This document shows, one piece after another, positions 2-63,434 of a stretch of DNA of 64,000 bases. The position numbers and the translations under genes were made by a program. Under the pieces are notes generated by a model. It did not search any database, was not told where the DNA came from, and saw nothing but the letters and a program-made list of their open reading frames with translations. Source of the DNA: a virus; the IMG/VR virus record IMGVR_UViG_3300027777_000028, positions 1 to 64,000 of that record; one strand, 5' to 3'. How positions within the stretch are numbered: position 1 is the stretch's first letter; each line of letters starts with the position of its first letter.

Positions 2-2206
2 TATTCACAGTTTGTTGCGGAAGCGGGTGCCGGTGTATTAACACCTGGTAGGTTTTACTTGATGACTGATTATCAAACTTGTTATGACCAACCAAACTAT
101 GATAATTTAAAAAATCCTATCACAACGGGTAACTATAAAACAGGAACAACAGAACCTATATTATTATTGGCAATATCTACAAACAGGTTTTCACCTACGG
201 TATATTCTACATTATACCCTCAAGATAAAATAACATACGATATAACTTGGAATACCACTGAAATCACGAGTAGCCCTGCAAAAGGTAGAATCACTGAAAG
301 AATTGATAACTTTAATAATAGAACTGATTATGATAACAGAAGTATTTTATTTAAAAGATATAATGGATATTACTATAATGAAGGACCTGGATCTGTTTTA
401 GATGGTCTTGTTGGGATAAGTGGTATAACAGGAACAACAGGTGTGTTATATGGTAATACGGGTACAACATTTAACTTAAGTTTATTTACTGGAGCAATTG
501 TTTCAGTACGAAATTTAAATCCTTCATTTTTTGAAGTTGTGTCTATTGTGAGTGCTTCTTTAGCGATTATATCAGGTGTAACAATAAGTGAAACTACCAA
601 CTCAAATTATTCTTTTGGAATTAATGATGGTAAAATGACTTATTACCAACCTAATGTAAGACAAGACCAAGTTTTTGAATATACAACATTTGGTGATGCT
701 ATTGATGAAAGTGGGGCGGTTAATAACTATATTGGTAACTATTCTAACCTACATTTAGAATTTGGTACTGGGGATTTTTTACTCGCAAACAATGTTTTTA
801 TTACAGGGGAATACACAAATAATACTATTGGTAACGGTTCTTATAATAACACATTCAATGATGATTGTGATAGCAATCAAATTGGAGATGGATTTTATAA
901 TAACTCAACAAATGATGATTTTGACGGTAATATAATTGGGGAAAATTTTAATAACAATTTTATTACATCAAATTTCAATAATAATAGAATTGGTAGTGAT
1001 TTTTATAATAATACTTTAGTGGGTGGTTCTTTTTATAGAAACAATATTGGAAATGATTTTAGGAATAATGTTTGGGAGAATTTCCTTTGGGATTTTCAAA
1101 ATAATGAAATAGGAAATCAGTTTAATAATAATAAAATTTATGATCAGTTTTATAATAATGATATTGGTAATGGGTATAATGGTAATCAAAGTTATTCACG
1201 ATTTTATCGTAATTTAATTGATAATGGATATAATGGTAATACGGTATATTCAGAGTTCTACGAAAATAATATTGGATTCAATTTTTATAATAATACTATT
1301 GGAGAAAACGGAAATATTGGGGGTACTGCTTTTAGGGGTAATATAATTGGGACCTATTTTGAAAGTAATACAATTAAATTTAATTTTTTAAGTAACAATA
1401 TTTTAAACGATTTTTACAATAATGACATATATTGTGCTTTTATAAAAAATTCAATATTAAATGGTTTTAACACAAACACAATTGGTGGAGTTAACAACTT
1501 AGGTCTTACTTTTGAGAACAACCAAATTATGAATAATTTTAAGGGTAACGATATTCAAGGTAATTTTTGGAGTAACCAACTTAAAACAAATTTTAAAGCT
1601 AATGAGATATTAGGTGAGTTTGGATATAATAATATAGGATTTGAGTGTTCACCTAATATTTTTAGTGGTATAACGACACATAACAATATCGGTGATGATT
1701 TTTCATTTAATACTTGTTACGGATCATTTTCTTACAACACAATAGGGACTTATTTCAATTCTAATGAGGTACAAGATGGATTTGGTTTTGGTGGGGCCTC
1801 ACCTCAAGGAAATAGAATCGGAAATAATTTTATAGATAATACCATCGGTGAATATTTCTACAATAATACTATTTCCGATAACTTTTACAATAACACAATT
1901 GGTGATTCATTCCAATGGAATATTGTTAATACCCAAGTTAATAATGTTTGTTTAAGTACAGGTATGTTATATGATATCACAACAGTTAATGTATTCAAAA
2001 ATAAAAATGGAGATAACAGATTATCATATTACGATGAATTAGATGTTTTAACAATAGAAACATTAACTGAGGCTCCTTGTCTAGGTGGGTTAAATGCGTT
2101 AGACATACCAGAAAATGATTTGAATTATGGACTAATAGTTTATATTAACGATATTGTTGTTTTAGATATACCTGAAGACGATTTAAATTATGGGTTAGTA
2201 ATATAA
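2..2206 (+). CDS. Tail fibre/spike-like beta-helix repeat protein (5'-truncated by window edge)
   Basis: Frame is open from position 2 through the called start at 59. Long Asn-rich ~9-residue repeats (N-x-I-G-x-x-F-x-N) typical of parallel beta-helices. Neighbours are other fibre-like genes. Confidence 0.65.
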   Translation, partial: YSQFVAEAGAGVLTPGRFYLMTDYQTCYDQPNYDNLKNPITTGNYKTGTTEPILLLAISTNRFSPTVYSTLYPQDKITYDITWNTTEITSSPAKGRITERIDNFNNRTDYDNRSILFKRYNGYYYNEGPGSVLDGLVGISGITGTTGVLYGNTGTTFNLSLFTGAIVSVRNLNPSFFEVVSIVSASLAIISGVTISETTNSNYSFGINDGKMTYYQPNVRQDQVFEYTTFGDAIDESGAVNNYIGNYSNLHLEFGTGDFLLANNVFITGEYTNNTIGNGSYNNTFNDDCDSNQIGDGFYNNSTNDDFDGNIIGENFNNNFITSNFNNNRIGSDFYNNTLVGGSFYRNNIGNDFRNNVWENFLWDFQNNEIGNQFNNNKIYDQFYNNDIGNGYNGNQSYSRFYRNLIDNGYNGNTVYSEFYENNIGFNFYNNTIGENGNIGGTAFRGNIIGTYFESNTIKFNFLSNNILNDFYNNDIYCAFIKNSILNGFNTNTIGGVNNLGLTFENNQIMNNFKGNDIQGNFWSNQLKTNFKANEILGEFGYNNIGFECSPNIFSGITTHNNIGDDFSFNTCYGSFSYNTIGTYFNSNEVQDGFGFGGASPQGNRIGNNFIDNTIGEYFYNNTISDNFYNNTIGDSFQWNIVNTQVNNVCLSTGMLYDITTVNVFKNKNGDNRLSYYDELDVLTIETLTEAPCLGGLNALDIPENDLNYGLIVYINDIVVLDIPEDDLNYGLVI
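2099..2203 (+). repeat. Duplicated 14-codon C-terminal motif (LDIPENDLNYGLIV / LDIPEDDLNYGLVI)
   Basis: Copies at 2099-2140 and 2162-2203; five codon differences are synonymous and three are conservative. Confidence 0.9.
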
Positions 2207-2259
2207 AAAATAAATAACACAATATTTATTATAAATAATAAACAAAAAAACAAAAAAAA

Positions 2260-3336
2260 ATGATACAAGGAATTAGAATAACAAGTACAAATTTATCAGG
2301 ACTAACGGCAAACGTTACTTTTTTACCCACAACTGGTGGAACTATTAATTTAGGATCTGAAGTAATACCATTTAATAATATTTCGGTTTATCCTTACGGA
2401 ACATACGAATTAGACGTTCAATTATATGATAGAATATACGAAATAGTTGTACCAGCACCGTTAACAGGTCAGAGCGCATATACTCAAACAGTAAGAGCGG
2501 TTACCGTTGACGGAGGAGCCCAACCATTTTCAGGAGCCGTATTATCTGAAGTGTGGGGAACATATACAACAGAATATATTACAAATGAAGGAATATCATC
2601 AACTGATATTGTTTTAGCTGAAGGTATTTGTTCTGATGATGTTGATGCTGCATATTTACCCGGAAATATCGGTGGATGGCCAACAAGTATTAATTCTTTC
2701 TTAGGACCATTTCAATCAGGAGGACTAGCAGGTTATCCGTTTGTTGGTAGTGTTGGATTTGGAGCATTTGCAAGTCACGTAGCAACAACTCTTGGTGGAA
2801 CTTTGTTTGTTACAAGTATGCCACACATTGGTGTTACTGAAGATGGTCGTTCAGGTAGAATGTTAAGAAGAGGTAAAGCAAATAGTTTAACCGATAATAC
2901 CTGTGGTGCCGTTGCGGGAGCAATTGACCAAGTTGTAAATCAACTAAGCTCACCTCCAGATCAAAATAACGCACCTTTTAATAATGAAAATTATTCTTTT
3001 TGGAAATTGACTGATATTTTATGGCCGTATAAAAATGTATTATCAGGTTTTACAGGTACTTCTGAAGAGATTTATAATAATCAAATGATATTTGCCACAG
3101 AAACTATTAGGGATTCAGCGTATGATTATATAATCGCAAATTTACCAGCAGCAACAACTGGAAACACCACAAATGATGTGTATTTTTTAAGTGGTATTTT
3201 TATTAATTCTGATGTTAGTTCCGGTACAACACAATTTGAGTCGTATGTCGTTGTTGATAAAGTCATGAAATATGAATATGGTATTGGGTGGAACAATATT
3301 ACTGTTAATTATATGTCCGGATTACCAATTGACTAA
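2260..3336 (+). CDS. Theta-class (LCIB/LCIC family) carbonic anhydrase domain fused to an N-terminal beta-rich virion-type module
   Basis: Motifs ICSDD (C124), FQSGGLAGYPFVGSVGFGAFASHV, PHIG (H189), GRMLRRG and TCGAV (C215) match the order of LCIB-family motifs, with the Cys-His-Cys Zn ligands intact. Confidence 0.85.
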   Translation: MIQGIRITSTNLSGLTANVTFLPTTGGTINLGSEVIPFNNISVYPYGTYELDVQLYDRIYEIVVPAPLTGQSAYTQTVRAVTVDGGAQPFSGAVLSEVWGTYTTEYITNEGISSTDIVLAEGICSDDVDAAYLPGNIGGWPTSINSFLGPFQSGGLAGYPFVGSVGFGAFASHVATTLGGTLFVTSMPHIGVTEDGRSGRMLRRGKANSLTDNTCGAVAGAIDQVVNQLSSPPDQNNAPFNNENYSFWKLTDILWPYKNVLSGFTGTSEEIYNNQMIFATETIRDSAYDYIIANLPAATTGNTTNDVYFLSGIFINSDVSSGTTQFESYVVVDKVMKYEYGIGWNNITVNYMSGLPID

Positions 3337-3354
3337 ATAAATTAAAAAAATAAA

Positions 3355-4638
3355 ATGGCAACAAAATATATTGTAAATAACGTATCGGGACAAACCATAA
3401 ATGGTGATTTAACCACGAATACTATATCGGCAACAACATATTATAATGTTTCGTCAAATTTTCAATCTGAGATACACGTAAGTCAAATAGATGGAAACGA
3501 CACTACAGGCGATGGTAGTTTGCTTAATCCTGTTGCAACTATTACTTACGCATTGACTTTATTGACAGGGTCTCGTAAAACAATTATTGTTCATCCAGGC
3601 GGTTATAATGAAAATGTTACGGTTGCAAGTGGTAATACCACAATAGCTACAACCGAGTTAACGGGTGCAAATACTCTTTTATCGGGAACTTTAACTATTG
3701 GTTCATTAGGTTCAGGTTCTCGTATTTCGGGTTTGAGGATGTCTAAGCTTGTCATTAGTGGAACCGCACAGGCTTATATAAGCAATTGTACTGTTGATAC
3801 TCAAGTTACTAAATCTTCTAGTGGTTATGTAGAGATTATTAATACAGAAATGCAATGTACTTCAGGTATTCAAATTTATGGTGCAGGTATCACTATTATC
3901 AACGGTAATAAAAATGTTGCTGTATCAGTAAGTAACGATTCAGCACAAGTCATTGTAAAAGGATGTAATAGTGTTGTTACACCTTCCGCTAGCGCGGGTA
4001 ATCTAGCTATAGTTGATTGTATTGTAACAGCTTTAGGTGGAAATGCTATAACTATTACTAATTCCGCAACAACTTTAACTTTGCTTAATAGTCAAGTTCT
4101 TGTTCAGGCAGGTAATAATGTTGCACCCATTAGCGTTGCGGGTATTTATTCAATTATTAATACCATCTATGATAAACCAAATTCATCTCTTACGGGGACT
4201 AATACTAACTCTATTGATTATTTTCAATTTATAAATGCAGATAGATTAACTATAACAGGATCAATATATTCTCCAAACATAACAGGAGCGATAACAAATT
4301 TACCATCACCATCTGGTACTGTAAATTATGATTGTTCTATTGGAACAACATTTGTTCATTTTGGGGTTGATGCAACATCGGATTGGATAGTTAATTTAAC
4401 AAATTTTGATTTACCTGATGGTTGTTCGACATCTATAAAGATAATTGCGTCAAATGCTGATATATCGGGAAATACTTGGAAAATAACAGGGTTTAAAATA
4501 GATGGAGTTCCTCAAATATGGACTAAATCATGGACTAATGGTGCTAGAAATACATTGTATATTTATAAGTTTACAATTGTAAATACAGTATCGGGTATAG
4601 TTGCGTATGGGGAAAGAACAACAACAACACCAGCATAA
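3355..4638 (+). CDS. Tail fibre/tailspike-like protein with pectin-lyase-type beta-helix
   Basis: IHVSQIDGNDTTGDGSLLNPVATITYAL resembles the DUF1565-like cap of beta-helix proteins; S/T/G/N-rich body. Confidence 0.6.
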   Translation: MATKYIVNNVSGQTINGDLTTNTISATTYYNVSSNFQSEIHVSQIDGNDTTGDGSLLNPVATITYALTLLTGSRKTIIVHPGGYNENVTVASGNTTIATTELTGANTLLSGTLTIGSLGSGSRISGLRMSKLVISGTAQAYISNCTVDTQVTKSSSGYVEIINTEMQCTSGIQIYGAGITIINGNKNVAVSVSNDSAQVIVKGCNSVVTPSASAGNLAIVDCIVTALGGNAITITNSATTLTLLNSQVLVQAGNNVAPISVAGIYSIINTIYDKPNSSLTGTNTNSIDYFQFINADRLTITGSIYSPNITGAITNLPSPSGTVNYDCSIGTTFVHFGVDATSDWIVNLTNFDLPDGCSTSIKIIASNADISGNTWKITGFKIDGVPQIWTKSWTNGARNTLYIYKFTIVNTVSGIVAYGERTTTTPA

Positions 4639-5605: not shown

Positions 5606-8572
5606 ATGATATCACAAGAAGAAATAAAAAATTTCCTAGAAGGAAATGATCCAGAAAAATATATCGTTTCGGTCGAATACGATTACGTCACAGACAAAAT
5701 ATTCAAAATAAAAGAAGTTCCTGGTAAAGGAAAAGAAATTCAAAAGGACACCTTAATTTCATTCGCTTGGGTTGGTGATCTTCGTGGTCTAAACTTTTAT
5801 TCATCATCAAAAGGATTACAAAAAGAGGCCATGACAAAACATGGTATTATTATAGAAAAATTAAAAACCGAAAATAATGATCGTTTAAAACGAGGACTTA
5901 CATTTATGGTTAAATCTGTTAAAGGTTATAGAAACCTTATTCAGTTTTTTAGAGAAGGCGGAGTTGATCCTTGGGGTGAAAATGTTAAAGATTTGTTAAT
6001 GATATTACCTCCAGTCGAACAATATCTAATTTCAAAAGAAAAAAGATTATTCAAAGGGTTTGAAGAATATAATGATATTCTTAGAATGGTATTTGACCTT
6101 GAGACCACATCTTTAGAACCAAAAGATGGTAGGATCTTTATGATCGGAATTAAAACAAATAAAGGGTTTAAAAAAGTAATTGAATGCACAAATGCCGATG
6201 AAGAAAGAAGGGGATTAACAGAGTTTTTTCAAATAATTGACGACATAAAACCATCAATTATCTCGGGATATAACTCATTTAACTTTGACTGGCATTGGAT
6301 ATATGAAAGATGTAAGATTTTAAATCTTGATATTAAAAAAATTGCCAAGTCTTTAAACCCAAACAAATCAATCTCACAAAAAGATTCTATGTTGAAATTG
6401 GCAAATGAGGTTGAAAAGTTTAATCAAACTCAAATGTGGGGTTATAACATTATTGATATCTTACATTCAGTTCGTAGAGCACAAGCAATTAATTCAAACA
6501 TTAAAGAAGCGGGTCTTAAATATATCACAAAATATATCGAAGCAGAAGCTCCCGATCGTGTATATGTTGATCACGACAAAATTGGATCAATGTATCGAGA
6601 TAAAGAAGATTACTGGTTGAATATTGAAAATGGAAAATATAAAAAAGTTGGCACAGACTCCAAAGTTGATGATGTGTGTGAACGACATTCAAACATTTAT
6701 ATTAAAACAACGGGAGATAATATTATTGAGCGTTACTTGGACGATGACTTGGAAGAAACCCTTTTGGTTGACGAAGAATTCAATCAAGGATCATTTTTGT
6801 TGGCGTCCCTTCTTCCAACAACATATGAAAGGGTTTCAACAATGGGAACGGCAACATTATGGAAAATGTTAATGTTGGCTTGGTCTTATAAACATAATCT
6901 TGCAATACCAGCCAAAAACGATAAGGGGAACTTCGTGGGAGGACTTTCTCGTTTGATTAGAACAGGATACTCAAAGAATGTATTAAAACTCGACTACTCG
7001 TCTCTATACCCCTCCATTCAGTTGGTTCACGATGTGTTTCCTGATTGTGATGTGACAGGTGCAATGAAAGGTCTTTTAACTTATTTTAGAAATAGTCGTA
7101 TCAAATACAAACAACTCGCCGAAGAATATGCCTCTATTGATAAAAAGAAATCAACATCTTATGACCGTAAACAATTACCGATTAAGATCTTCATTAACTC
7201 GATGTTCGGTGCCCTTTCAGCCCCACAGGTATTTCATTGGGGTGATATGGATAAGGGTGAAATGATTACTTGCACAGGTCGTCAGTATCTTCGAATGATG
7301 ATTAACTTTTTTATGGATCGTGGATATACACCTCTTGTGATGGACACGGATGGTATTAACTTTTCGGTTCCTGAAGGTGTGGAAGAAAGACGTTATGTTG
7401 GTAAAGGTCTGAATTGGAAAGTTGTTGATGGTAAAGAATATATTGGTGAAGAGGCTGATGTAATGGAGTTTAACGATCTTGCGATGAGAGGTGAGATGGC
7501 TCTTGATACTGACGGACAATGGCCTGCGTGTATTAACTTGGCTCGTAAGAATTACGCTTTGATTACGGCAAAAGGTAAAATCAAACTTACAGGTAACTCA
7601 ATCAAATCTAAAAAAATGCCAATCTATATTGAGAAGTTTTTGGATAAAGGAATTAAATTACTTCTTGATGGTAAAGGACAAGAGTTTGTCGAGTGGTATT
7701 ATGAATACGTCCAACAGATATTTGACCTTCAAATTCCTTTGATGGATATTGCAAACAAAGCAAAAGTAAAACAAACCATCGATGATTATATAATTCGTAG
7801 TAAGCAAACAACAAAGGCGGGAAGTTTAATGTCTAGACAAGCACACATGGAATTGGCAATCAAAGAGGGGTTAAATGTAAATCTTGGTGATGTAATATTT
7901 TATGTTAATAATGGATCGAAAGCATCACACGGAGACGTTCAAAAAGTTAATAAACCAAAGAAAGGTTGGTCACAAGAACAAATTGATTTGTTTTTTTCGG
8001 ATAGTTTAAAAAGTAATTTAGATTACAAACAGAAAGAAAAATTTTTACTTAACAATGGTTGGGAAAAATCTTGGTCGGAAGATAACTGGGTACGTAGTGA
8101 TGCTAAAAACAAGGAGGCAAATACCGGAATACCAACAGATTTCGCCTATCGACTTAGTAGTACCGATTCAGTTATCCAACTAAATTGTTACCGAATTGAG
8201 CCATCTGATTTAGAAAATAACCCGACAATGAAAGGTCAATATAATATTCAAAGAGCAATTGCGACTTTTAATAAACGTGTAGAACCATTACTTGTTGTGT
8301 TTAAACAAGAAGTAAGAAATGGATTGTTGGTTAAGAATCCAGAAGACCGACCATTCTTCACAAAAGATCAATGTGAATTAATTAACGGACAACCATTTGA
8401 TGAAGGCGACCAAGACAAATTAGAAGACGTTATGGAAATTTCAGATGAGGAAATGTTATTTTGGAATCGTGTTGGTGAGACACCATATCACATGTATAAA
8501 AATGCTGATGATGTCATGTGGAAATATGTACCAAAAGAAGATTTAATCAAGTTTGAGACCATCGGAGGATAG
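5606..8572 (+). CDS. polB: Family B DNA polymerase with 3'-5' exonuclease
   Basis: ExoI FDLETTS, ExoII GYNSFNFDW, motif A LDYSSLYPSI, motif B KIFINSMFG, motif C MDTDG. Confidence 0.96.
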   Translation: MISQEEIKNFLEGNDPEKYIVSVEYDYVTDKIFKIKEVPGKGKEIQKDTLISFAWVGDLRGLNFYSSSKGLQKEAMTKHGIIIEKLKTENNDRLKRGLTFMVKSVKGYRNLIQFFREGGVDPWGENVKDLLMILPPVEQYLISKEKRLFKGFEEYNDILRMVFDLETTSLEPKDGRIFMIGIKTNKGFKKVIECTNADEERRGLTEFFQIIDDIKPSIISGYNSFNFDWHWIYERCKILNLDIKKIAKSLNPNKSISQKDSMLKLANEVEKFNQTQMWGYNIIDILHSVRRAQAINSNIKEAGLKYITKYIEAEAPDRVYVDHDKIGSMYRDKEDYWLNIENGKYKKVGTDSKVDDVCERHSNIYIKTTGDNIIERYLDDDLEETLLVDEEFNQGSFLLASLLPTTYERVSTMGTATLWKMLMLAWSYKHNLAIPAKNDKGNFVGGLSRLIRTGYSKNVLKLDYSSLYPSIQLVHDVFPDCDVTGAMKGLLTYFRNSRIKYKQLAEEYASIDKKKSTSYDRKQLPIKIFINSMFGALSAPQVFHWGDMDKGEMITCTGRQYLRMMINFFMDRGYTPLVMDTDGINFSVPEGVEERRYVGKGLNWKVVDGKEYIGEEADVMEFNDLAMRGEMALDTDGQWPACINLARKNYALITAKGKIKLTGNSIKSKKMPIYIEKFLDKGIKLLLDGKGQEFVEWYYEYVQQIFDLQIPLMDIANKAKVKQTIDDYIIRSKQTTKAGSLMSRQAHMELAIKEGLNVNLGDVIFYVNNGSKASHGDVQKVNKPKKGWSQEQIDLFFSDSLKSNLDYKQKEKFLLNNGWEKSWSEDNWVRSDAKNKEANTGIPTDFAYRLSSTDSVIQLNCYRIEPSDLENNPTMKGQYNIQRAIATFNKRVEPLLVVFKQEVRNGLLVKNPEDRPFFTKDQCELINGQPFDEGDQDKLEDVMEISDEEMLFWNRVGETPYHMYKNADDVMWKYVPKEDLIKFETIGG

Positions 8573-10051: not shown

Positions 10052-12196
10052 TTAGATAAATATTTTACCCAACTCATTTTTATAAAAACTTATCATTTCA
10101 AAAATTTCAGAATTTTCACCTTCTAACTCTTTTACCTTATCTGTGAAATATTGAATTCTTTCTTTATAAAATTCAATTTGTTTGTTAACATCTTTTGAAA
10201 TTGATTGTTTTACCGGTGTTTTTGGAGTTTCTTTTTGTGTTGGAACTTTAAAATTACTTTGTAATGGCATTTCATAATAATAGATAAAATATGGGGGTTG
10301 TTTTTTTGGATTACTTACCGTTAACATTTTATTGTGGTCATTTCTAAACATAATGTATTTTTGTTCTGATCTATCAACATACAACATTACATCAACATTT
10401 TCACCTTTATATTTATTTTGACTATTCCACGAAGCCACTTTAAAATAATATCCCCTATCTCCACCATCAAAAAATTTAATATCGTTATTTTGATTTAGAA
10501 ATGGTTTAACTTGAAAATAAATTGTTTCTTTTCCTTTTATTTTCAAAACTATGTCTTGTCCTTTTTTTCGATCGTTGATGTCTCCTGAACAATGTTCATA
10601 CAGTTCATAAGTTATTCCTTCTTCGTCAGGATTTAAGTTATATATTTGACGAATAATATTTTTAGCATAACTTTCATTTTCCTTACCAATCTCGATTGTT
10701 CCTATATTTGGTTCTGATAATCTATCTAAATACATTCCTTCGTTTGAAAACAAATCAAATGCTCGATCTTTAATCCATGTTTTAAAGTCGGACAAACCTT
10801 CAGTTTCTTCTAACCAAATATTATATATTTCTTTTTTAACTTTACTGTTTGTATCAAAACGATTAATTATAGACCACTGACTTGTTCCACCAAATTTTTT
10901 CTCAGCGTATTCACCTCCTAAAACTCCAACTTCTGTGTTACATTTTTTGGTTTCAATTTTACCTAAACAACCGTTTTTATATTGCTTCCCATAACAACCA
11001 ACATATTGGGAATGAATTAATTCTCTTAACTTTTTTGGTGTATATGGGAACGCAAAAGTTGTGCTAATTTCATTTATATTTTCTTTTTTATCAACACTTT
11101 CTTTAATATTTTTCTTTTTTGTATGAAGGTTATATAGTTCTTCAACAAACTCCCAGTTTACCACATTCCAAAAATTGTTAATATATTCGTCTCTTTTGTT
11201 TTGGTATTTTAAATAATAAGCATGTTCCCAAACATCTAATCCTAAAATTGGAAAACCACCTTTTTTAACAATGTTCATCAAAGGGTTATCTTGATTTGGT
11301 GTTGACATTATTTTTAATTTCCCATCTTTCGCAATATACAACCAAGCCCAACCTGATCCAAAACGATCTTTAGCCGCTTCGTTAAATTCGTCCTTCATTT
11401 TTTTAATATTCCCAAAATCTTCTTTGATTTTTTTTAGAATTTCCCCTTTTGGTATTTGTTTTTTTGGTGATAACATTTTCCAAAATAGAGCATGATTAAA
11501 AGAACCTCCAGCATTATTTCTGACCTTGTTATCAAATTTTGATATTGAACGAACAATTTCTTCTAAGTCCATATCTCCATCAATATTTTTTAATGATTTA
11601 TTAAGTTTGTCAACATACCCTTTGTAGTGTTTGTTGTAGTGGACATTCATTGTTTTTGAATCGATAAATCTTGACAAGGAAGAATAAGAATATGGTAATT
11701 TTTCAATACCAATTTTTTTCATTTCAATCAACAAATTTTCTTCAATGGTTTTTTTCTCATTAATTATTATCTGTTCATTAACTAAATTTATTTTACCCTG
11801 TATTCCTTTTTGTTCATACATCAATTCTTCCATTTCAGGATTTTCTTTTTCAAACATTTTAATAAGTCTTCCCGCAAACGCATTTGCTTCGTCTTCGTTT
11901 TGACCCCCAATGTCAGGACCTTTTTTTCTTTTTAACACATCCATTTGGTATTCGTGAACCCATTCGTGAGCTAATGTTCTCATAATGTCTCGATTCATTC
12001 GATCACCAACCAATACTTTTATTATATTATCTGACATTCTACTACCTGTTGACATTTCACCTTTTTGTTGATCTAAAAAAAATATTTTTACATCGTTTTT
12101 TAAAGGAAATTCTTTTTGCAGAAGTTTTGTAAACTTATTAACAAAGTCTGTGTATTTTTTAAAATCTTTATTTTCATAATTAAATGATACTTTCAT
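10052..12196 (-). CDS. sod: Multidomain protein: HExxH zincin-like domain + Fe/Mn (Mn-type) superoxide dismutase + putative PD-(D/E)xK-like domain
   Basis: SOD at aa ~159-357: LPYSYSSL, H186, NNAGGSFNH(235), FGSGWAWL, NQDNP, D321VWEH325AYY. N-terminal HEWVH...EDEANAFAG. C-terminal E...DRKKGQD...QVK. Confidence 0.9.
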   Translation of the reverse strand: MKVSFNYENKDFKKYTDFVNKFTKLLQKEFPLKNDVKIFFLDQQKGEMSTGSRMSDNIIKVLVGDRMNRDIMRTLAHEWVHEYQMDVLKRKKGPDIGGQNEDEANAFAGRLIKMFEKENPEMEELMYEQKGIQGKINLVNEQIIINEKKTIEENLLIEMKKIGIEKLPYSYSSLSRFIDSKTMNVHYNKHYKGYVDKLNKSLKNIDGDMDLEEIVRSISKFDNKVRNNAGGSFNHALFWKMLSPKKQIPKGEILKKIKEDFGNIKKMKDEFNEAAKDRFGSGWAWLYIAKDGKLKIMSTPNQDNPLMNIVKKGGFPILGLDVWEHAYYLKYQNKRDEYINNFWNVVNWEFVEELYNLHTKKKNIKESVDKKENINEISTTFAFPYTPKKLRELIHSQYVGCYGKQYKNGCLGKIETKKCNTEVGVLGGEYAEKKFGGTSQWSIINRFDTNSKVKKEIYNIWLEETEGLSDFKTWIKDRAFDLFSNEGMYLDRLSEPNIGTIEIGKENESYAKNIIRQIYNLNPDEEGITYELYEHCSGDINDRKKGQDIVLKIKGKETIYFQVKPFLNQNNDIKFFDGGDRGYYFKVASWNSQNKYKGENVDVMLYVDRSEQKYIMFRNDHNKMLTVSNPKKQPPYFIYYYEMPLQSNFKVPTQKETPKTPVKQSISKDVNKQIEFYKERIQYFTDKVKELEGENSEIFEMISFYKNELGKIFI

Positions 12197-58261: not shown

Positions 58262-61248
58262 TGGCAACAAATAAATTTACTTGTCCACCTCAAAGTAGTG
58301 CGGCAAATCAATTCTCTAACAATTTGGTTGGAGTTCAGTTGGTTACCGGTGGAGGATTAACGCAAGCAAATTTTAATTTTACAACAGGTATTTCAGAAAA
58401 ACAGAATCGAACTTTTACGATTGGAACTTTTTCTGACCCTATCAATTTGCAGTCCATGAATATGGAAAACAATATTGAATCTGCAGAAATTTTAGCCAAC
58501 AATTATAGAGTTTATCCAAATTACGATTTATCACAAGTTACAAACTTTACACAATACGGATCTTTGGTTAAAAGATTATCAACTTCAGTTACAAAGATCA
58601 TTAACTTTTTTCCTGCGGGATTGGAAGTTTCTCCAAGTACACCAAAGTTCATAACACAAGAAACCGCAATCAACATTTCATACGACTCGGTAGAAAACGA
58701 CACAACATTTGAAGTTTATTTATCATCAATTCAAAATCCATTTGAAATTGATTATTCTACCAATTCAGAAATAAACATGATGTTTAATGAAATGGAAGTT
58801 TCTCCATTACGAAATATGAAATTACAATATAAAAAGTATGTTTTATATGTTAATGGAAATCAATACCCTGTAAATTACTTATACCCAACAGATAGTTCAT
58901 CAACAACATTAAAACTTATTGTAGACGGAAACCCATTTCAAGGAAACCAAATTTCTTATGATTATTTAATTGTTAGACCAAGCGATTATGAAACGAACAA
59001 AGTTTTTAATTTAGATTTTGATCCGGTCGAAAACTTTTTATTAAATAGACAAATTACACCTGCATATACCGCAACATTTACCGTACCTGTGGAACAAGAA
59101 AACGGGACATTCATTTTGACCAACGACACGGCAACTTGGCCAAGAGCAGGATTTTGGAATTTGGATATTAGATCTGGTTCTTTTGACAATTATTTGACAA
59201 AAATTAATGATTTTGCATATAATATGGATCAATATACCACAAATATTGTATCTAGATTTTTAACAACAGGTGCTCTTAAAGAATTTGACACACCTGATCA
59301 AAGGTTTGAAAAACTACTTCAAATATACGGAAGAAGTTTTGATGAAACAAAAACATTTATAAGTGCTTTAGGAAACATCAATAGCATTCATTATACAATT
59401 CAAAACGATATTCCTTCACAATTATTAAAAAATTTGGCACAAACATTAGGTTGGGTTACGAATTTTTCACCAATATCTAATGAAGAACTATTACAGGCTG
59501 TGTTCACAACTCAACCAAATACTTTTCCTGGTCTACAAATAGGACAAACACCAGAGGAGATAAATTATCAGTTTTATAGAAATTTAATTCTAAACTCGGC
59601 ATATCTTTTCAAATCAAAAGGGACAAGAAAATCTATTGAATGTTTATTAAGAATGATCGGAGCCCCTGAGGCAATTACCGAATTTAATGAATATGTTTAT
59701 CTTGCCGACCAAAGAATTAATATGAGCGAGTTTAATCAACAATACGCTCAAATTAGTACTGGTACATTATTAACACAAATTCCCGTTTATGATACAACCG
59801 ATGTTTATTCAATTCAGGGAATTTCATATACAGGATTTACAACGACATCAACAAATACAAATGTTCTAACGACAAGAACCGACTATCCTGTTGATGAATT
59901 TGGTTGTCCTAAAATGCCAACACCAACAGAAACATACTTTTTTCAAATAGGAGGTGGATGGTTTGAATCGACACCACAACATAGAATGCCTGAATTCGCA
60001 GTTCCGACAAATGCGGTTTTTACAGGAAACAATCCAAATTATCAAACACAACTTTTACCTTTTAATTATGGTGAAGAGTATTTGCAAGTTTATAGACATT
60101 TTCCTTATATGGATATGGGTTTTAAATTAAGAAACGTTATTGACAACAAAAAAAGTTGGGTAGACACAAATTCAACTTTGAGAACAAGTTTTGATGGGGG
60201 ATTTAATTCATATTATAATGTTGGAGAAGAATGTTTGGTCTTGAATGTTAAAAATGTTGATATAATGATGAATCCAGCTCAAGGGTTGGCTTATGATGTT
60301 TGGTATATGTCAAACAAATATAATTTTCCAATACCAGAACAAGGATTATTTTATCAACCACCTTCCCCATGTTATGTACCGAACCCATATCCAAAATTAG
60401 GTGGGGTTGATTGGACCACAATTGTTCCAAAACCAAAACAAAAAACTTTCTTTGAATTTGCTCAAACTTTTTGGCGAAACATGATCAATACAAGAAATCG
60501 TCAATTTATTACTGATGGAAAAACAGGAGGTTACCCAACACTACAATCAATATATTGGAGATATTTAGAATCACAAAAATTAGCAGGAGTGCCAAATGAC
60601 AACTTTACTTATCAAACTATGATTGATTATGTAAATGGGATGGGAGATTATTGGATTCAAATGATTGAACAAATGGTTCCAGCAACAACTATTTGGAATA
60701 CGGGAACAAGATTGGAAAATTCAATATTTCATAGACAAAAATTTGTGTGGAGAAGACAAGAAGGTTGTAAGTTTCTTCCAATTCCTTGTAAACCTTGTAA
60801 TCTTACAACACAACTATATGTCTTGGATTGTCCGGTACAACAAGTTACTTGTGGTTTATATCCCTGGTCTACTGATCCAAACACAACATCATTTGGTATT
60901 GTTTTGGCTCAAACTATGTTAGATTTCTTCACATCACAAGGGTTAGATCCAAATAATTGTCAAATAAATACTATTGTAAGTAATTGGTTTGTTGATGTGA
61001 GAGTGAATGGAACAATATTAACACAATATGGTTTCTTTGAAGGTATAGGAACAAATGGATTCCCAACTAGTAGTCAATGGGTGACGGCATTATCCGAAGC
61101 TTTCGATGGTTTACTAACCGATGGGTATAGTTATAATATTGATGAAACGGATCAAGAGATTGTCGTATTTAATAATAATTGTCAACCAAATTTTGACGAA
61201 CTCCAAATTAATGTTGGAATAAACTTCGAGGTGTATTGTAACGGATAA
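58261..61248 (+). CDS. Baseplate wedge / tail protein I-like (gp7/P2 gpI-like) protein
   Basis: LLKNLAQTLGW...YRNLILNSAYLFKSKGTRKSIECLLRMIG is the gpI-like signature. Confidence 0.65.
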   Translation: MATNKFTCPPQSSAANQFSNNLVGVQLVTGGGLTQANFNFTTGISEKQNRTFTIGTFSDPINLQSMNMENNIESAEILANNYRVYPNYDLSQVTNFTQYGSLVKRLSTSVTKIINFFPAGLEVSPSTPKFITQETAINISYDSVENDTTFEVYLSSIQNPFEIDYSTNSEINMMFNEMEVSPLRNMKLQYKKYVLYVNGNQYPVNYLYPTDSSSTTLKLIVDGNPFQGNQISYDYLIVRPSDYETNKVFNLDFDPVENFLLNRQITPAYTATFTVPVEQENGTFILTNDTATWPRAGFWNLDIRSGSFDNYLTKINDFAYNMDQYTTNIVSRFLTTGALKEFDTPDQRFEKLLQIYGRSFDETKTFISALGNINSIHYTIQNDIPSQLLKNLAQTLGWVTNFSPISNEELLQAVFTTQPNTFPGLQIGQTPEEINYQFYRNLILNSAYLFKSKGTRKSIECLLRMIGAPEAITEFNEYVYLADQRINMSEFNQQYAQISTGTLLTQIPVYDTTDVYSIQGISYTGFTTTSTNTNVLTTRTDYPVDEFGCPKMPTPTETYFFQIGGGWFESTPQHRMPEFAVPTNAVFTGNNPNYQTQLLPFNYGEEYLQVYRHFPYMDMGFKLRNVIDNKKSWVDTNSTLRTSFDGGFNSYYNVGEECLVLNVKNVDIMMNPAQGLAYDVWYMSNKYNFPIPEQGLFYQPPSPCYVPNPYPKLGGVDWTTIVPKPKQKTFFEFAQTFWRNMINTRNRQFITDGKTGGYPTLQSIYWRYLESQKLAGVPNDNFTYQTMIDYVNGMGDYWIQMIEQMVPATTIWNTGTRLENSIFHRQKFVWRRQEGCKFLPIPCKPCNLTTQLYVLDCPVQQVTCGLYPWSTDPNTTSFGIVLAQTMLDFFTSQGLDPNNCQINTIVSNWFVDVRVNGTILTQYGFFEGIGTNGFPTSSQWVTALSEAFDGLLTDGYSYNIDETDQEIVVFNNNCQPNFDELQINVGINFEVYCNG

Positions 61249-63434
61249 TGAGTATATCAATTTATAATTTAAACGTAACGGGAGATTGTAGTAATACAAA
61301 TTCAGGTAGTGTATTTTTTAACATTACAGGAACAACACCCCCGTTTGCAGTTACCTGTATTACCTCTGGTTGTCCATTACCAACATCAGCAGCCACATTA
61401 AGTTATTCGGCATCAAGTTTATCAGCAGACACTTATTTTTTACAAATTATTGATGGGGCTTCTAACTCTTATTTACAATCAATTTACATATCATCAGGAA
61501 CAACCGCCACGATTGATTCATTAAATACAAGTTGTGGTTTAGAAAACGGAGAGATTACAGGATTTACTTCGGGTGTTTATGGTATTGCAACATTTACACT
61601 TTATGATGGGGATGATAATTATGTGAGTTCTGCCACAACACCAAACTCAAATTATGTATTTACAAGTTTATCGGCAGGAACATATTATATTGTTGCTAAT
61701 GACGGAGGTGGTTGCACAGGAATTACCGCATCTGTCATTTTAACCCCATCAACGGGACTTACATTTGGGGCATATGTTGTAAATGACGGAAGTTGTATAG
61801 GAACTCCAAGTGGAAAAATATTTATAACGGGATTAACACTTCCTGTTTCAGCATATACAATAACTTGGTCTCCAAATGTCGGATCACAAACAGGAACAAC
61901 AATTACAGGATTAACAAGTGGTGTTTATTTGGCGACCATAACAGATCCTAATAATTGCACGACAACAAATTCATTTACCGTAAACTCTGTTGGAGCATTA
62001 ACTTCAGCAGGTTTTATAACAATATCTCAACCAACTTGTTTTTCTAATAATGGGTCAGTTGAGTTTATAATAACAGGGGGGACTGCTCCATATTTTTTTA
62101 GTGGATCATCAGGTCAAGTTGAAATTACTTTTAATGACTCGGTTATTTTTACGGGACTTTCTTCTGGTGGTTATAGTTTTTTAGTCACAGATGCAGGTCT
62201 TTGTACAATTTATGATTCGGTTTCTTTATTAACACCAAACTCGTTTAGTACCGTTGCTGTTAATACAACACCATCAACTTGTTCTGTAAATGACGGAACA
62301 ATACAAGTAATAGTTGATAATGGTTTTGCCACAGAACCAAGTTTATTAATATCAGTGTCTGGTACATCAGGAACACAACAAATTGGAACATTAGGAAACC
62401 CAAGTCAAACATTTTATGGATTACCAAACGGAACTTATTTGGTTATTGTTGAAACGGCAGGTTGTACATACACTGCAACAACAAATATAACGTCTATTAG
62501 TTTATATACCGTAAGCGCAACAACAACAGGAACTACTTGTGGGTCAAGTAATGGTGTGTTACAAGTTTTAGTGTCCACTGGTGGAACATTACCTTATTTA
62601 TTCACATTAGTTGGACCTTCTTACGCTCCTGTATCAACAACAACACCTGTAGGAACATTTACAAACCTTAGTTATGGGAATTATGTTCTTACGGTACAAG
62701 ATTCAGGATCTCCTTCGTGTATTCAAACATTTCCTGTTTATATTAGTTATAGTCAAAATGTGTTTTTCAATCTTTATCCCAATCAACCATTCAACGGAAA
62801 TGACGGGTCAATAACCACAATTATTACATCAGGTGAACCTCCATTTACTTTAACGTGGTCTGGTAATGTTTCAGGACAAACAGGGTCTACAATAACAGGT
62901 TTAACATCAGGATCTTATTCATTAACCGTAACAGATTCTAGTGGGTGTACGTTAACAAAAACCATAAAGTTATCGGGAACAAAAAAATATAGTAATTACA
63001 GATATTATAATATTTGTGAAAACACATTTGAAGATAGTGGAACAATTACCAAAAGAGATATTAGATCTATGTATTTGGAAGGATTTTCGGATCTTACAAG
63101 TGGAGATACTAATTGTATAATAAATGACGCGACATTTTCAATATATGCTCAAATCGGATCTCAATCTGCTCAAACTCAGTTTTTTGTTTCAACAGGATCA
63201 ACCGATTATCCAAGTGATTCACTTTGGGCACAAACAATTACAAACACATTAGATTCGTTTTTAGGTATATCAGGAACAACGGTTGATATTATATCAAATA
63301 GAATTACGGTTAAAACAACATGCGAAGACATACCAAAAGGATGTATAATTGAACCAATAAATCCATTACAAGATAATCAAATAATTGTAAATCTAATTAT
63401 TGATTACGACATATCTTGTGTTTCGTGTTCTTAA
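61248..63434 (+). CDS. SprB-repeat-like Ig/adhesin virion protein
   Basis: About 7 repeats of C..NxG.I....GG..PY...W.....TGLxxGxYxxxVTDxxGC. Confidence 0.7.
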   Translation: MSISIYNLNVTGDCSNTNSGSVFFNITGTTPPFAVTCITSGCPLPTSAATLSYSASSLSADTYFLQIIDGASNSYLQSIYISSGTTATIDSLNTSCGLENGEITGFTSGVYGIATFTLYDGDDNYVSSATTPNSNYVFTSLSAGTYYIVANDGGGCTGITASVILTPSTGLTFGAYVVNDGSCIGTPSGKIFITGLTLPVSAYTITWSPNVGSQTGTTITGLTSGVYLATITDPNNCTTTNSFTVNSVGALTSAGFITISQPTCFSNNGSVEFIITGGTAPYFFSGSSGQVEITFNDSVIFTGLSSGGYSFLVTDAGLCTIYDSVSLLTPNSFSTVAVNTTPSTCSVNDGTIQVIVDNGFATEPSLLISVSGTSGTQQIGTLGNPSQTFYGLPNGTYLVIVETAGCTYTATTNITSISLYTVSATTTGTTCGSSNGVLQVLVSTGGTLPYLFTLVGPSYAPVSTTTPVGTFTNLSYGNYVLTVQDSGSPSCIQTFPVYISYSQNVFFNLYPNQPFNGNDGSITTIITSGEPPFTLTWSGNVSGQTGSTITGLTSGSYSLTVTDSSGCTLTKTIKLSGTKKYSNYRYYNICENTFEDSGTITKRDIRSMYLEGFSDLTSGDTNCIINDATFSIYAQIGSQSAQTQFFVSTGSTDYPSDSLWAQTITNTLDSFLGISGTTVDIISNRITVKTTCEDIPKGCIIEPINPLQDNQIIVNLIIDYDISCVSCS

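What the first reader, a model, noticed from the sequence alone, without database searches (positions are those of the whole stretch)
2260..3336. Phage theta-class (LCIB-type) carbonic anhydrase fused to a virion-like module among fibre genes
Seen: aa ~85-350 carry the LCIB/LCIC motifs in order (ICSDD; FQSGGLAGYPFVGSVGFGAFASHV; PHIG; G-x-x-x-R-x-G; TCGAV), with putative Zn ligands C124, H189 and C215 intact. The first ~65 aa are a T/G-rich beta module like those in virion proteins. The gene sits between two fibre-like genes and has the TATTTAT motif of the structural genes. Known: LCIB-family theta-CAs act in algal CO2-concentrating mechanisms and have bacterial homologues; I know of no described phage example. 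Inference: a virion-displayed or late-expressed CO2/HCO3- enzyme that could alter local pH or bicarbonate, or a CA fold co-opted as a structural/receptor-binding domain.
Basis: partly seen in the sequence, partly recalled or inferred. Interest (0 to 1): 0.88.

Follow-up and report, generated by a model that had tools for sequence, protein, structure and literature searches.

The report
Phage LCIB-type carbonic anhydrase on handle
An uncultured giant lake-water phage encodes a complete algal-type (LCIB/theta) zinc carbonic anhydrase joined to a small N-terminal "handle" that related phages also put on adhesin-like proteins, so the enzyme may ride on the virus particle, but neither that nor its activity has been tested.

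Summary
ORF 2260-3336 (+, 358 aa) matches Pfam LCIB_C_CA (E 5.6e-29). Its AlphaFold model (pLDDT 93.5) superposes on 6kfs and PtLCIB4 (Z 27, rmsd 2.2-2.4 A). C124, D126, H173, H189, R203 and C215 are invariant in 63 family members. The enzyme domain is predicted to form the family's homodimer (score 0.91, best control 0.00), with these motifs at the interface.

Residues 1-70 are a separate beta-sandwich module. It also heads at least 55 other protein clusters with unrelated C-termini. In a 91%-complete relative, three such paralogues, two with DUF285 repeats, lie between the terminase and portal genes. That places them in the head block, not a tail-fibre block.

The "between fibre genes" claim is weak. 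The gene always sits just upstream of PolB, and its neighbours are variable and unidentifiable. TATTTAT is a real upstream motif, but not only of structural genes.

All viral LCIB domains form one well-supported branch, apart from the Bacteroidota and diatom rows. None was found in cultured phages or viral UniProt models. Habitat is freshwater lakes. Weak hints point to a Bacteroidota host.

Enzyme activity and virion location are untested. This scan has already reported the same gene family on at least 14 other genomes, so the finding is a recurrence, not a first sighting.

The parts
2223..2237 (+). Promoter-like element TATTTAT (2223-2229) directly followed by TATAAATA (2230-2237), 22-37 nt before the start codon, then an A-rich leader with no Shine-Dalgarno sequence
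   Evidence: TATTTAT precedes 23 of 81 genes against 2.5 expected. A core ATATTTAT(A/T)AAT is kept 15-38 nt before the ATG in diverged orthologous loci. TATAAATA alone is not clearly enriched (21 against 12.8, sd 3.8). Function as a promoter is inferred.
2260..3336 (+). Whole gene: 358-aa two-domain protein (handle plus LCIB-type carbonic anhydrase), stop codon included
   Evidence: Full-length orthologues of 45-93% identity occur on 53 IMG/VR contigs. dN/dS is about 0.2.
2260..2469 (+). N-terminal handle, aa 1-70: a small all-beta (sandwich, Ig-like) module
   Evidence: AF2 gives six strands at pLDDT 81-96. At least 55 other protein clusters with different C-termini start with it at 43-66% identity. 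Structural matches are weak: Z about 6 to beta-sandwich domains and one 77-residue match to an uncharacterised phage protein.
2470..3333 (+). LCIB/theta-type (beta-CA fold) carbonic anhydrase domain, aa 71-358
   Evidence: Pfam PF18599 E 5.6e-29. VIA-align gives 6kfs Z 27.2, rmsd 2.2 A, 242 of 248 residues, and PtLCIB4 Z 26.9. Foldseek TM 0.80-0.81 on the targets. Homodimer score 0.91 against best control 0.00.
2629..2637 (+). Codons C124-S125-D126: first zinc ligand and the active-site Asp (aligned to PtLCIB4 C46-S47-D48)
   Evidence: C124 and D126 are invariant in 43 phage orthologues and in 63 diverse family members.
2776..2778 (+). Codon H173, aligned to PtLCIB4 His88 (the residue changed in PDB 5b5z)
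   Evidence: Invariant and in the predicted dimer interface. Alignment.
2824..2826 (+). Codon H189, second zinc ligand (aligned to PtLCIB4 His102)
   Evidence: Invariant. Alignment.
2866..2868 (+). Codon R203, the family's invariant Arg in the RRG motif
   Evidence: Invariant in 63 of 63 rows and in the predicted dimer interface, residues 203-207.
2902..2904 (+). Codon C215, third zinc ligand (aligned to PtLCIB4 Cys126)
   Evidence: Invariant. Alignment.
2..2206 (+). Upstream neighbour: Asn-rich protein with ~9-residue repeats, 5' end cut by the contig end. Context only; highly variable between relatives.
   Evidence: 35-90% identity across loci where the CA gene is 78-93% identical. No Pfam, PHROG or PDB match. 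27-nt repeats.
3355..4638 (+). Downstream neighbour: 427-aa ORF with a weak tail-protein profile match, a variable insert. Context only.
   Evidence: phrog_4577 E 1.2e-7. Present only in L017 and L050 among the related loci.

Best explanation
The gene encodes a two-domain protein. Residues 71-358 are a genuine member of the LCIB (theta, beta-CA-fold) family. The domain binds one zinc through C124, H189 and C215. It keeps the active-site Asp (D126), the His matching PtLCIB4 His88 (H173) and the family's invariant Arg (R203). It pairs into the family's homodimer, with the active-site motifs at the subunit interface. It therefore most likely interconverts CO2 and bicarbonate. Residues 1-70 are a small beta-sandwich handle that this group of lake phages places at the N-terminus of many unrelated, mostly adhesin-like proteins. 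The most likely role of the handle is to dock its cargo onto the phage particle. The gene carries the upstream motif shared mainly with virion genes, so it is probably made late and assembled onto the particle. There the enzyme would act outside the cell, at the host surface. Shown: family membership, fold, residue conservation, modularity of the handle and purifying selection. Inferred: catalysis, dimer formation in vivo, late expression and attachment to the particle (head or tail undecided).
For: Family and fold: Pfam E 5.6e-29. PDB sequence matches to 6kfs at 3.4e-14 and PtLCIB4 at 2e-10. AF2 model pLDDT 93.5 and pTM 0.85. Z 27.2 and 26.9 with rmsd 2.2 and 2.4 A over nearly the whole of 6kfs and PtLCIB4, against Z about 12 for classical beta-CAs.

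Active site: C124, D126, H173, H189, R203 and C215 are invariant in 43 phage orthologues down to 45% identity and in 63 family members down to about 23% identity. dN/dS is about 0.2.

Dimer: score 0.91 (median of three runs), best of three controls 0.00. The runs agree in at least 95% of contacts and the partner's pLDDT is at least 90. In the tool's calibration the mark was reached by 20 of 30 proteins solved as pairs of one chain and 1 of 23 solved as single chains. The interface holds residues 125-131, 148-156, 160-166, 173 and 203-207.

Handle: of the 57 clusters that matched the handle profile, at least 55 have unrelated C-termini. These include DUF5122 beta-propeller and phrog_15511 proteins. 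In the 91%-complete relative G402, three large paralogues (803, 744 and 1040 aa) lie between TerL and the T4-type portal, two of them with DUF285 repeats. Other phage lineages put the same enzyme domain on different N-terminal modules.

Expression: the TATTTAT motif precedes the sheath, baseplate and other virion genes and is kept before the CA gene in diverged lineages.
Against: No virion proteomics exists, and no known virion protein carries the handle. Nothing else in the 98 kb held for this phage has the handle. The gene lies beside PolB and behind a glycosyltransferase region in all relatives, not inside the sheath-baseplate block. The motif also precedes the DnaB-like gene. A two-fold enzyme does not fit the three-fold symmetry usual for fibres. 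[quoted passage not shown] 2016), so an intact site does not prove activity. The dimer pass may reflect the solved PtLCIB4 dimer.
Confidence: 0.5

Rival explanations
1. Intracellular auxiliary metabolic enzyme. The protein stays in the infected cell and speeds CO2/bicarbonate exchange to feed carboxylations needed for phage production (carbamoyl-phosphate, purine and fatty-acid synthesis) or to buffer pH. The handle would serve localisation or assembly inside the cell, not the particle.
For: The gene lies next to PolB, with a ribonucleotide reductase and other replication and nucleotide genes in the window. A Fe/Mn superoxide dismutase domain lies 7 kb away. [quoted passage not shown] Stand-alone LCIB-type enzymes occur in 49 of 401 sampled species of the phylum of a Chitinophaga MAG (Bacteroidota), so such hosts use the enzyme in the cell.
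Against: It does not explain why a folded 70-aa handle, shared with repeat-rich adhesin-like proteins, is conserved on the enzyme at dN/dS 0.22. It also does not explain why several phage lineages mount the domain on different N-terminal modules.
Confidence: 0.25
2. Non-catalytic use of the fold. The zinc site is kept for stability, and the domain acts as a binding or structural tip, for example a receptor-binding or decoration domain.
For: CrLCIB and LCIC show no activity in vitro (PMC5876011). The handle's other cargoes look like binding domains: DUF285 repeats and a beta-propeller.
Against: Residues beyond the three metal ligands (D126, H173, R203) are invariant across the whole phage branch and the cellular family. 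The protein is far less variable than its neighbour (78-93% against 35-90% identity), unlike typical receptor-binding tips.
Confidence: 0.13
3. Packaged and ejected protein. The handle targets cargo into the head, and the enzyme enters the cell with the DNA and acts at the start of infection.
For: The handle paralogues of the relative G402 lie between terminase and portal, in the head and packaging block.
Against: To my knowledge, capsid-targeting signals such as T4's are short cleaved peptides, not folded 70-aa domains. Large repeat-rich adhesin-like cargoes are unlikely internal proteins. No conserved protease-type cleavage motif was seen at the domain border: an L-S-E at aa 95-97 is not kept in diverged members.
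Confidence: 0.07

Closest known systems
PtLCIB4 of Phaeodactylum tricornutum (PDB 5b5y; LCIB family, also called theta-CA, a subgroup of the beta-CA fold) and the 'CCM related protein' of PDB 6kfs
   Same: Same fold over the whole enzyme domain (Z 26.9 and 27.2, rmsd 2.4 and 2.2 A). Same Cys-Asp...His...His...Arg...Cys pattern. Same predicted two-fold dimer with the conserved motifs at the interface.
   Different: Only 20-23% identity. The phage protein lacks the Arg of the CSDEVxRP stretch (it has CSDDVDAAY), but that Arg is not conserved in the family at large. It carries a 70-aa N-terminal handle and is encoded by a phage, with no link to a pyrenoid or thylakoid.
Chlamydomonas LCIB and LCIC (PDB 5k5w, 5b5x)
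   Same: Same family and fold (Z 20.6 and 20.0).
   Different: More distant (14-15% identity). They showed no activity in vitro (PMC5876011). They act as a complex around the pyrenoid.
Stand-alone bacterial LCIB_C_CA proteins of the phylum of a Chitinophaga MAG (Bacteroidota)
   Same: Same domain. Found in 49 of 401 sampled species, 226-278 aa.
   Different: 23-33% identity over most of the domain (up to 45% over short stretches), with no handle. They fall outside the viral branch in the tree.
Other phage LCIB-type enzymes (the P0125 type on 200-kb IMG/VR contigs; paired genes in L074)
   Same: Same viral branch of the family (40 rows, SH-aLRT 99). The enzyme is also mounted on an N-terminal module.
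   Different: A different N-terminal module (about 134 aa) and different genome positions. Some phages carry two adjacent copies.
[quoted passage not shown]
   Same: Same reaction, presumably. Viral carriage of a CA is not unprecedented (bioRxiv 10.64898/2026.01.21.700432; giant-virus beta-CAs appear only as weak fold matches).
   Different: A different class. Those are stand-alone enzymes read as metabolic genes, without a shared handle.

Membership tests
LCIB family (Pfam PF18599 LCIB_C_CA; theta-CA, a subgroup of the beta-CA fold) | Profile match above the curated threshold over most of the domain | tested here: met
   101.5 bits against a cut-off of 25, E 5.6e-29, profile positions 10-217 of 223. 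Repeated on the genome at 102.3 bits.
LCIB family (Pfam PF18599 LCIB_C_CA; theta-CA, a subgroup of the beta-CA fold) | Fold superposable on solved LCIB-family structures and closer to them than to classical beta-CAs | tested here: met
   6kfs Z 27.2, PtLCIB4 Z 26.9, CrLCIB Z 20.6, against about 12 for classical beta-CAs. The model has pLDDT 93.5.
LCIB family (Pfam PF18599 LCIB_C_CA; theta-CA, a subgroup of the beta-CA fold) | Cys-His-Cys zinc ligands (PtLCIB4 Cys46, His102, Cys126; ligand identity from my knowledge of Jin et al. 2016 and the beta-CA paradigm) | tested here: met
   C124, H189 and C215 align to these positions (the numbering agrees with the S47R and H88A entry names). They are invariant in 63 of 63 family rows.
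LCIB family (Pfam PF18599 LCIB_C_CA; theta-CA, a subgroup of the beta-CA fold) | Active-site Asp two residues after the first Cys, plus the His and Arg named as important for active-site integrity (CrLCIB His162 and Arg194; PMC5876011) | tested here: met
   D126, H173 and R203 are invariant. H173 aligns to PtLCIB4 His88. The equivalence of R203 to CrLCIB Arg194 is by motif position and was not checked in a structure.
LCIB family (Pfam PF18599 LCIB_C_CA; theta-CA, a subgroup of the beta-CA fold) | Homodimer with the active site at the subunit interface | tested here: inconclusive
   Prediction score 0.91 against best control 0.00, with the conserved motifs in the interface. A like dimer is solved, so the pass may be from memory. 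It is a prediction, not a measurement.
LCIB family (Pfam PF18599 LCIB_C_CA; theta-CA, a subgroup of the beta-CA fold) | Zinc-site geometry (ligand atoms within bonding distance of one metal) | not testable with these tools
   Model coordinates are not delivered to the script box. Only alignments and scores were available.
LCIB family (Pfam PF18599 LCIB_C_CA; theta-CA, a subgroup of the beta-CA fold) | CO2 hydration or bicarbonate dehydration activity | not testable with these tools
   Needs a purified protein and an assay.
Phage virion-attached (fibre or decoration) proteins with a shared N-terminal anchor | One N-terminal module on several proteins with different distal domains within a phage group | tested here: met
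   At least 55 other clusters carry it. There are 5 copies in G402 and G405, and 3 in G403 and G406.
Phage virion-attached (fibre or decoration) proteins with a shared N-terminal anchor | Gene located inside an identifiable virion gene block | tested here: inconclusive
   The CA gene lies beside PolB with unidentifiable neighbours. The handle paralogues of G402 lie between TerL and portal.
Phage virion-attached (fibre or decoration) proteins with a shared N-terminal anchor | Presence in purified particles, or a known docking partner | not testable with these tools
   No cultured relative exists. The nearest cultured PolB is 24% identical.

The most novel reading that the evidence does not exclude
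A catalytically active carbonic anhydrase dimer is displayed on the surface of a giant freshwater phage through a plug-in handle. It works outside the cell, changing CO2, bicarbonate or pH in the boundary layer of the host envelope during adsorption or penetration. The host is possibly a Bacteroidota cell. This would be a virion-borne enzyme that acts on an inorganic substrate, not on a polymer.
Probability: 0.3. Interest if true: 0.85.

Novelty: new variant of a known kind. Interest (0 to 1): 0.6.

Why it matters
To my knowledge, the virion-borne enzymes described so far cut polymers such as capsules, lipopolysaccharide and peptidoglycan. A particle-mounted carbonic anhydrase would be a different kind of tool, one that alters local inorganic chemistry. 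It would also show that the LCIB/theta family, mostly known from algal CO2-concentrating mechanisms, has a large virus-specific branch in lakes. If the enzyme instead works inside the cell, it adds a fourth CA class to the known viral auxiliary genes and points to bicarbonate supply as a bottleneck for giant-phage replication. The handle is also of practical interest as a natural plug-in system for mounting cargo on these phages.

Tried and rejected
1. A missing Asp-Arg dyad. The solved relatives read CSDEVxRP and the phage reads CSDDVDAAY, so I suspected a dead site. Across 63 family members that position is mostly Ala, Ser or Gly, while R203 in the RRG motif is invariant. The worry was dropped.

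2. The first AF2 run, on 18 close orthologues, gave pLDDT 52 and was discarded. An 88-row alignment gave 93.5.

3. My first ORF extraction gave 499-540-aa 'fusions' in L046-L048. These were frame artefacts. L048 has a 127-aa handle-only ORF followed by a 359-aa CA gene.

4. The handle on the upstream neighbour: full-length homologues of the Asn-rich protein do not carry it.

5. Cultured phages (INPHARED): no tblastn match for the protein or for the handle alone. The tool warns that records of the window's own genome may be left out.

6. BFVD viral structures: no LCIB-like match at E <= 0.001.

7. GTDB genomes: no close relative of the phage protein.

9. The ESM Atlas search with the handle gave no usable hit.

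10. Expression. Contigs from one lake metatranscriptome library (X20) cover the CA gene of a ~90%-identical relative (2325-3396). A second library (X19) covers only neighbouring genes. Such libraries can hold DNA, so this is not evidence of transcription.

11. TATAAATA as a T4-type late promoter: 21 sites against 12.8 expected and no consistent placement. Not used as evidence.

12. No tRNA genes in the 98 kb.

13. The Jin et al. 2016 paper is not held. Its points are cited second-hand from PMC5876011 or marked as my own knowledge.

Full report
**What is there**

The window is the first 64 kb of a 98,376-bp IMG/VR viral contig that CheckV rates 34% complete. The whole genome is therefore probably near 290 kb. 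It encodes a tail sheath, a baseplate wedge, a family-B DNA polymerase, a DnaB-like helicase, a UvsX-like recombinase and a ribonucleotide reductase. That makes it a large contractile-tailed phage. GC content is about 31%.

**Identity of the enzyme domain**

- Pfam LCIB_C_CA (PF18599) matches aa 102-333 at E 5.6e-29, 101.5 bits against a cut-off of 25.
- By sequence the nearest solved structures are 6kfs (E 3.4e-14) and PtLCIB4 5b5y (E 2e-10).
- A first AlphaFold run on 18 close orthologues failed with pLDDT 52. With an 88-row alignment that added distant relatives, the model reached pLDDT 93.5 and pTM 0.85.
- Foldseek puts PtLCIB4 and 6kfs first, with E about 5e-15 and TM 0.80-0.81 on the targets.
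- VIA-align gives Z 27.2 (rmsd 2.2 A, 242 of 248 residues) for 6kfs, Z 26.9 for PtLCIB4, about 20 for Chlamydomonas LCIB and LCIC, and about 12 for classical beta-CAs.
- The structural alignment starts at residue 71, so the enzyme domain is aa 71-358.

**Active site**

From the HMMER alignment to PtLCIB4, the mapping is: C124 to C46, D126 to D48, H173 to H88, H189 to H102 and C215 to C126. This numbering is consistent with the S47R and H88A entry names in the PDB.

These five residues and R203 are invariant in 43 phage orthologues down to 45% identity. They are also invariant in 63 family members down to about 23% identity.

I first suspected a defect, because the solved relatives read CSDEVxRP and the phage reads CSDDVDAAY. 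That Arg is not conserved in the family, whereas R203 in the RRG motif is. A review citing Jin et al. 2016 names a His and an Arg (CrLCIB His162 and Arg194) as the residues whose disorder explains the inactivity of CrLCIB (PMC5876011). By motif position these correspond to H173 and the R203 region.

dN/dS among close orthologues is about 0.2 in both domains.

**Dimer**

Two copies of aa 73-358 gave a score of 0.91 (median of three runs), with 0.00 for the best of three controls. The runs agree in at least 95% of contacts and the partner's pLDDT is at least 90. In the tool's calibration the mark was reached by 20 of 30 proteins solved as pairs of one chain and by 1 of 23 solved as single chains.

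The interface contains residues 125-131, 148-156, 160-166, 173 and 203-207. These are the conserved motifs around the metal site, as expected for this family. A PtLCIB4 dimer is solved, so this pass shows likeness and does not prove that this protein pairs.

**The N-terminal handle**

A profile search of 1.84 billion representatives found 1051 relatives. Many match only residues 1-70 or 1-90, always at their own N-terminus. An HMM of the handle picked out 57 clusters. Two of these (P0121, P0141) are forms of the CA protein itself. The other 55 have lengths from 83 to 829 aa, are 43-66% identical over the handle, and have C-terminal parts that match nothing in this phage.

Their cargoes include a DUF5122 beta-propeller, phrog_15511 proteins and Asn-rich proteins of about 700 aa. 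The AF2 model shows six beta strands. Structural matches are weak: Z about 6 to beta-sandwich domains, and one good 77-residue match to an uncharacterised 740-aa phage protein.

In this phage's own 98 kb, only the CA gene carries the handle. In larger related records there are 1 to 5 copies.

In the 91%-complete 272-kb relative G402, three large handle-bearing genes (803, 744 and 1040 aa) lie in a row between the large terminase and the T4-type portal gene. Two of them carry 8-10 DUF285 repeats.

This changes the picture in two ways. The handle's other cargoes look like binding proteins that make most sense on the outside of a particle, which favours display. But their position is the head and packaging block, not a tail-fibre cluster. 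Together with the two-fold enzyme, a decoration-type or monomeric docking mode is at least as likely as a three-fold fibre anchor.

**Genomic context**

- Across 53 IMG/VR loci the CA gene always lies 0.1-2.5 kb upstream of PolB.
- The upstream Asn-rich repeat protein varies from 35 to 90% identity where the CA is 78-93% identical.
- The downstream 427-aa ORF (phrog_4577, 1.2e-7) occurs in only two loci.
- Further upstream in relatives lie a glycosyltransferase and unidentifiable genes.
- So 'between two fibre genes' cannot be confirmed.

**Upstream motif**

TATTTAT is truly enriched before genes: 23 of 81 against 2.5 expected, usually 11-42 nt before the start. This includes the sheath gene and the genes that follow it, and the large 1697- and 1880-aa ORFs, but also the DnaB-like gene. 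A core ATATTTAT(A/T)AAT is kept before the CA gene in diverged lineages. I read it as a phage promoter element, probably late. The timing is inferred.

**Evolution and distribution**

A maximum-likelihood tree of 117 domain sequences places every IMG/VR sequence, plus 23 unlabelled metagenome sequences, in one cluster. This cluster has 40 rows, SH-aLRT 99 and a long stem of 0.85. It stands apart from 12 Bacteroidota sequences and from a cluster holding a diatom sequence. The tree is unrooted and most rows are unlabelled, so no donor is claimed.

Other phage lineages mount the domain on a different N-terminal module, and some carry two adjacent copies.

- No match was found in 50,697 cultured-phage records.
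- None was found among viral UniProt models at E <= 0.001.
- No close relative was found in 185,579 GTDB species genomes.
- In the phylum of a Chitinophaga MAG, 49 of 401 sampled species carry a stand-alone LCIB-type gene. The twelve compared were 23-33% identical to the phage domain over most of its length.

**Habitat and host**

The DNA is held by freshwater and lake metagenomes of 17 studies. Two independent runs laid on the window gave near-identical contigs.

Several weak hints point to a Bacteroidota host:
- Only 3 of 70 genes have a Shine-Dalgarno-like motif, and the leaders are 48% A.
- ORF 61248 has a SprB-repeat match at the threshold.
- The handle paralogues carry DUF285 repeats.
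- The nearest cultured PolB is from Salinibacter phages, at only 24% identity.

That Bacteroidota make little use of Shine-Dalgarno sequences is my own knowledge.

**Literature**

Full-text searches found no paper linking LCIB or theta-CA with phages. [quoted passage not shown]

**Earlier notes of this scan**

The same orthologous gene and related phage LCIB genes have already been reported on at least 14 other genomes, with the same reading. I reached the shared points independently before opening those notes.

- the terminase-portal position and DUF285 cargo of the handle paralogues;
- the homodimer test for this orthologue;
- the check that the 'missing' Arg is not a family feature;
- the tree;
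- the host hints;
- the caution that the fibre context is unproven.

**Verdict**

The gene is a real and intact LCIB-type carbonic anhydrase on a modular phage handle. Enzyme activity is likely. Attachment to the particle is plausible but unshown, and the site (head or tail) is open.

Noticed in passing
window 10052-12196 (- strand): A 713-aa ORF contains a complete Fe/Mn superoxide dismutase (Sod_Fe_N 1e-19 at aa 164-242, Sod_Fe_C 2e-41 at aa 248-352) embedded between about 160 aa and 360 aa of unassigned sequence. With the carbonic anhydrase, this is a second small-molecule metalloenzyme fused to other parts in the same phage.
   Followed up: partly
window 61248-63434 (+ strand): A 728-aa ORF near the baseplate genes has a SprB-repeat match just at Pfam's threshold (28.2 bits against a cut-off of 28). 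SprB is, to my knowledge, the gliding-motility adhesin of Bacteroidota, so this is a possible host hint.
   Followed up: no
whole contig G000 (98 kb): Only 3 of 70 genes have a Shine-Dalgarno-like 4-mer within 20 nt of the start, and the leaders are 48% A. No tRNA genes were found.
   Followed up: partly
L099 4830-16007 (G402:C1:13829-25006): In a 91%-complete 272-kb relative, four large genes lie between the large terminase and the T4-type portal. Three of them carry 6-10 DUF285 repeats (1062, 803 and 744 aa), and three start with the same handle as the carbonic anhydrase (803, 744 and 1040 aa).
   Followed up: partly
L074 6001-8067: A 202-kb viral contig of another lineage carries two adjacent LCIB-type genes (ORFs 6001-7206 and 7210-8067) that fall in different sub-branches of the viral cluster.
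   Followed up: no
L051 5692-8022: In another lineage the LCIB domain (aa 149-364) is embedded in a 776-aa protein with a ~400-aa C-terminal extension of unknown kind.
   Followed up: no
L048 5989-6372 and L025 9332-9592, 10498-10725: Small ORFs (127, 86 and 75 aa) consist of little more than the handle. In L048 one lies directly upstream of the CA gene.
   Followed up: no
window 3396-4252: A contig from a lake RNA library (X20) joins 3396 to 4252, skipping 855 nt of the 427-aa downstream ORF. This fits a related strain that lacks most of that variable gene.
   Followed up: no
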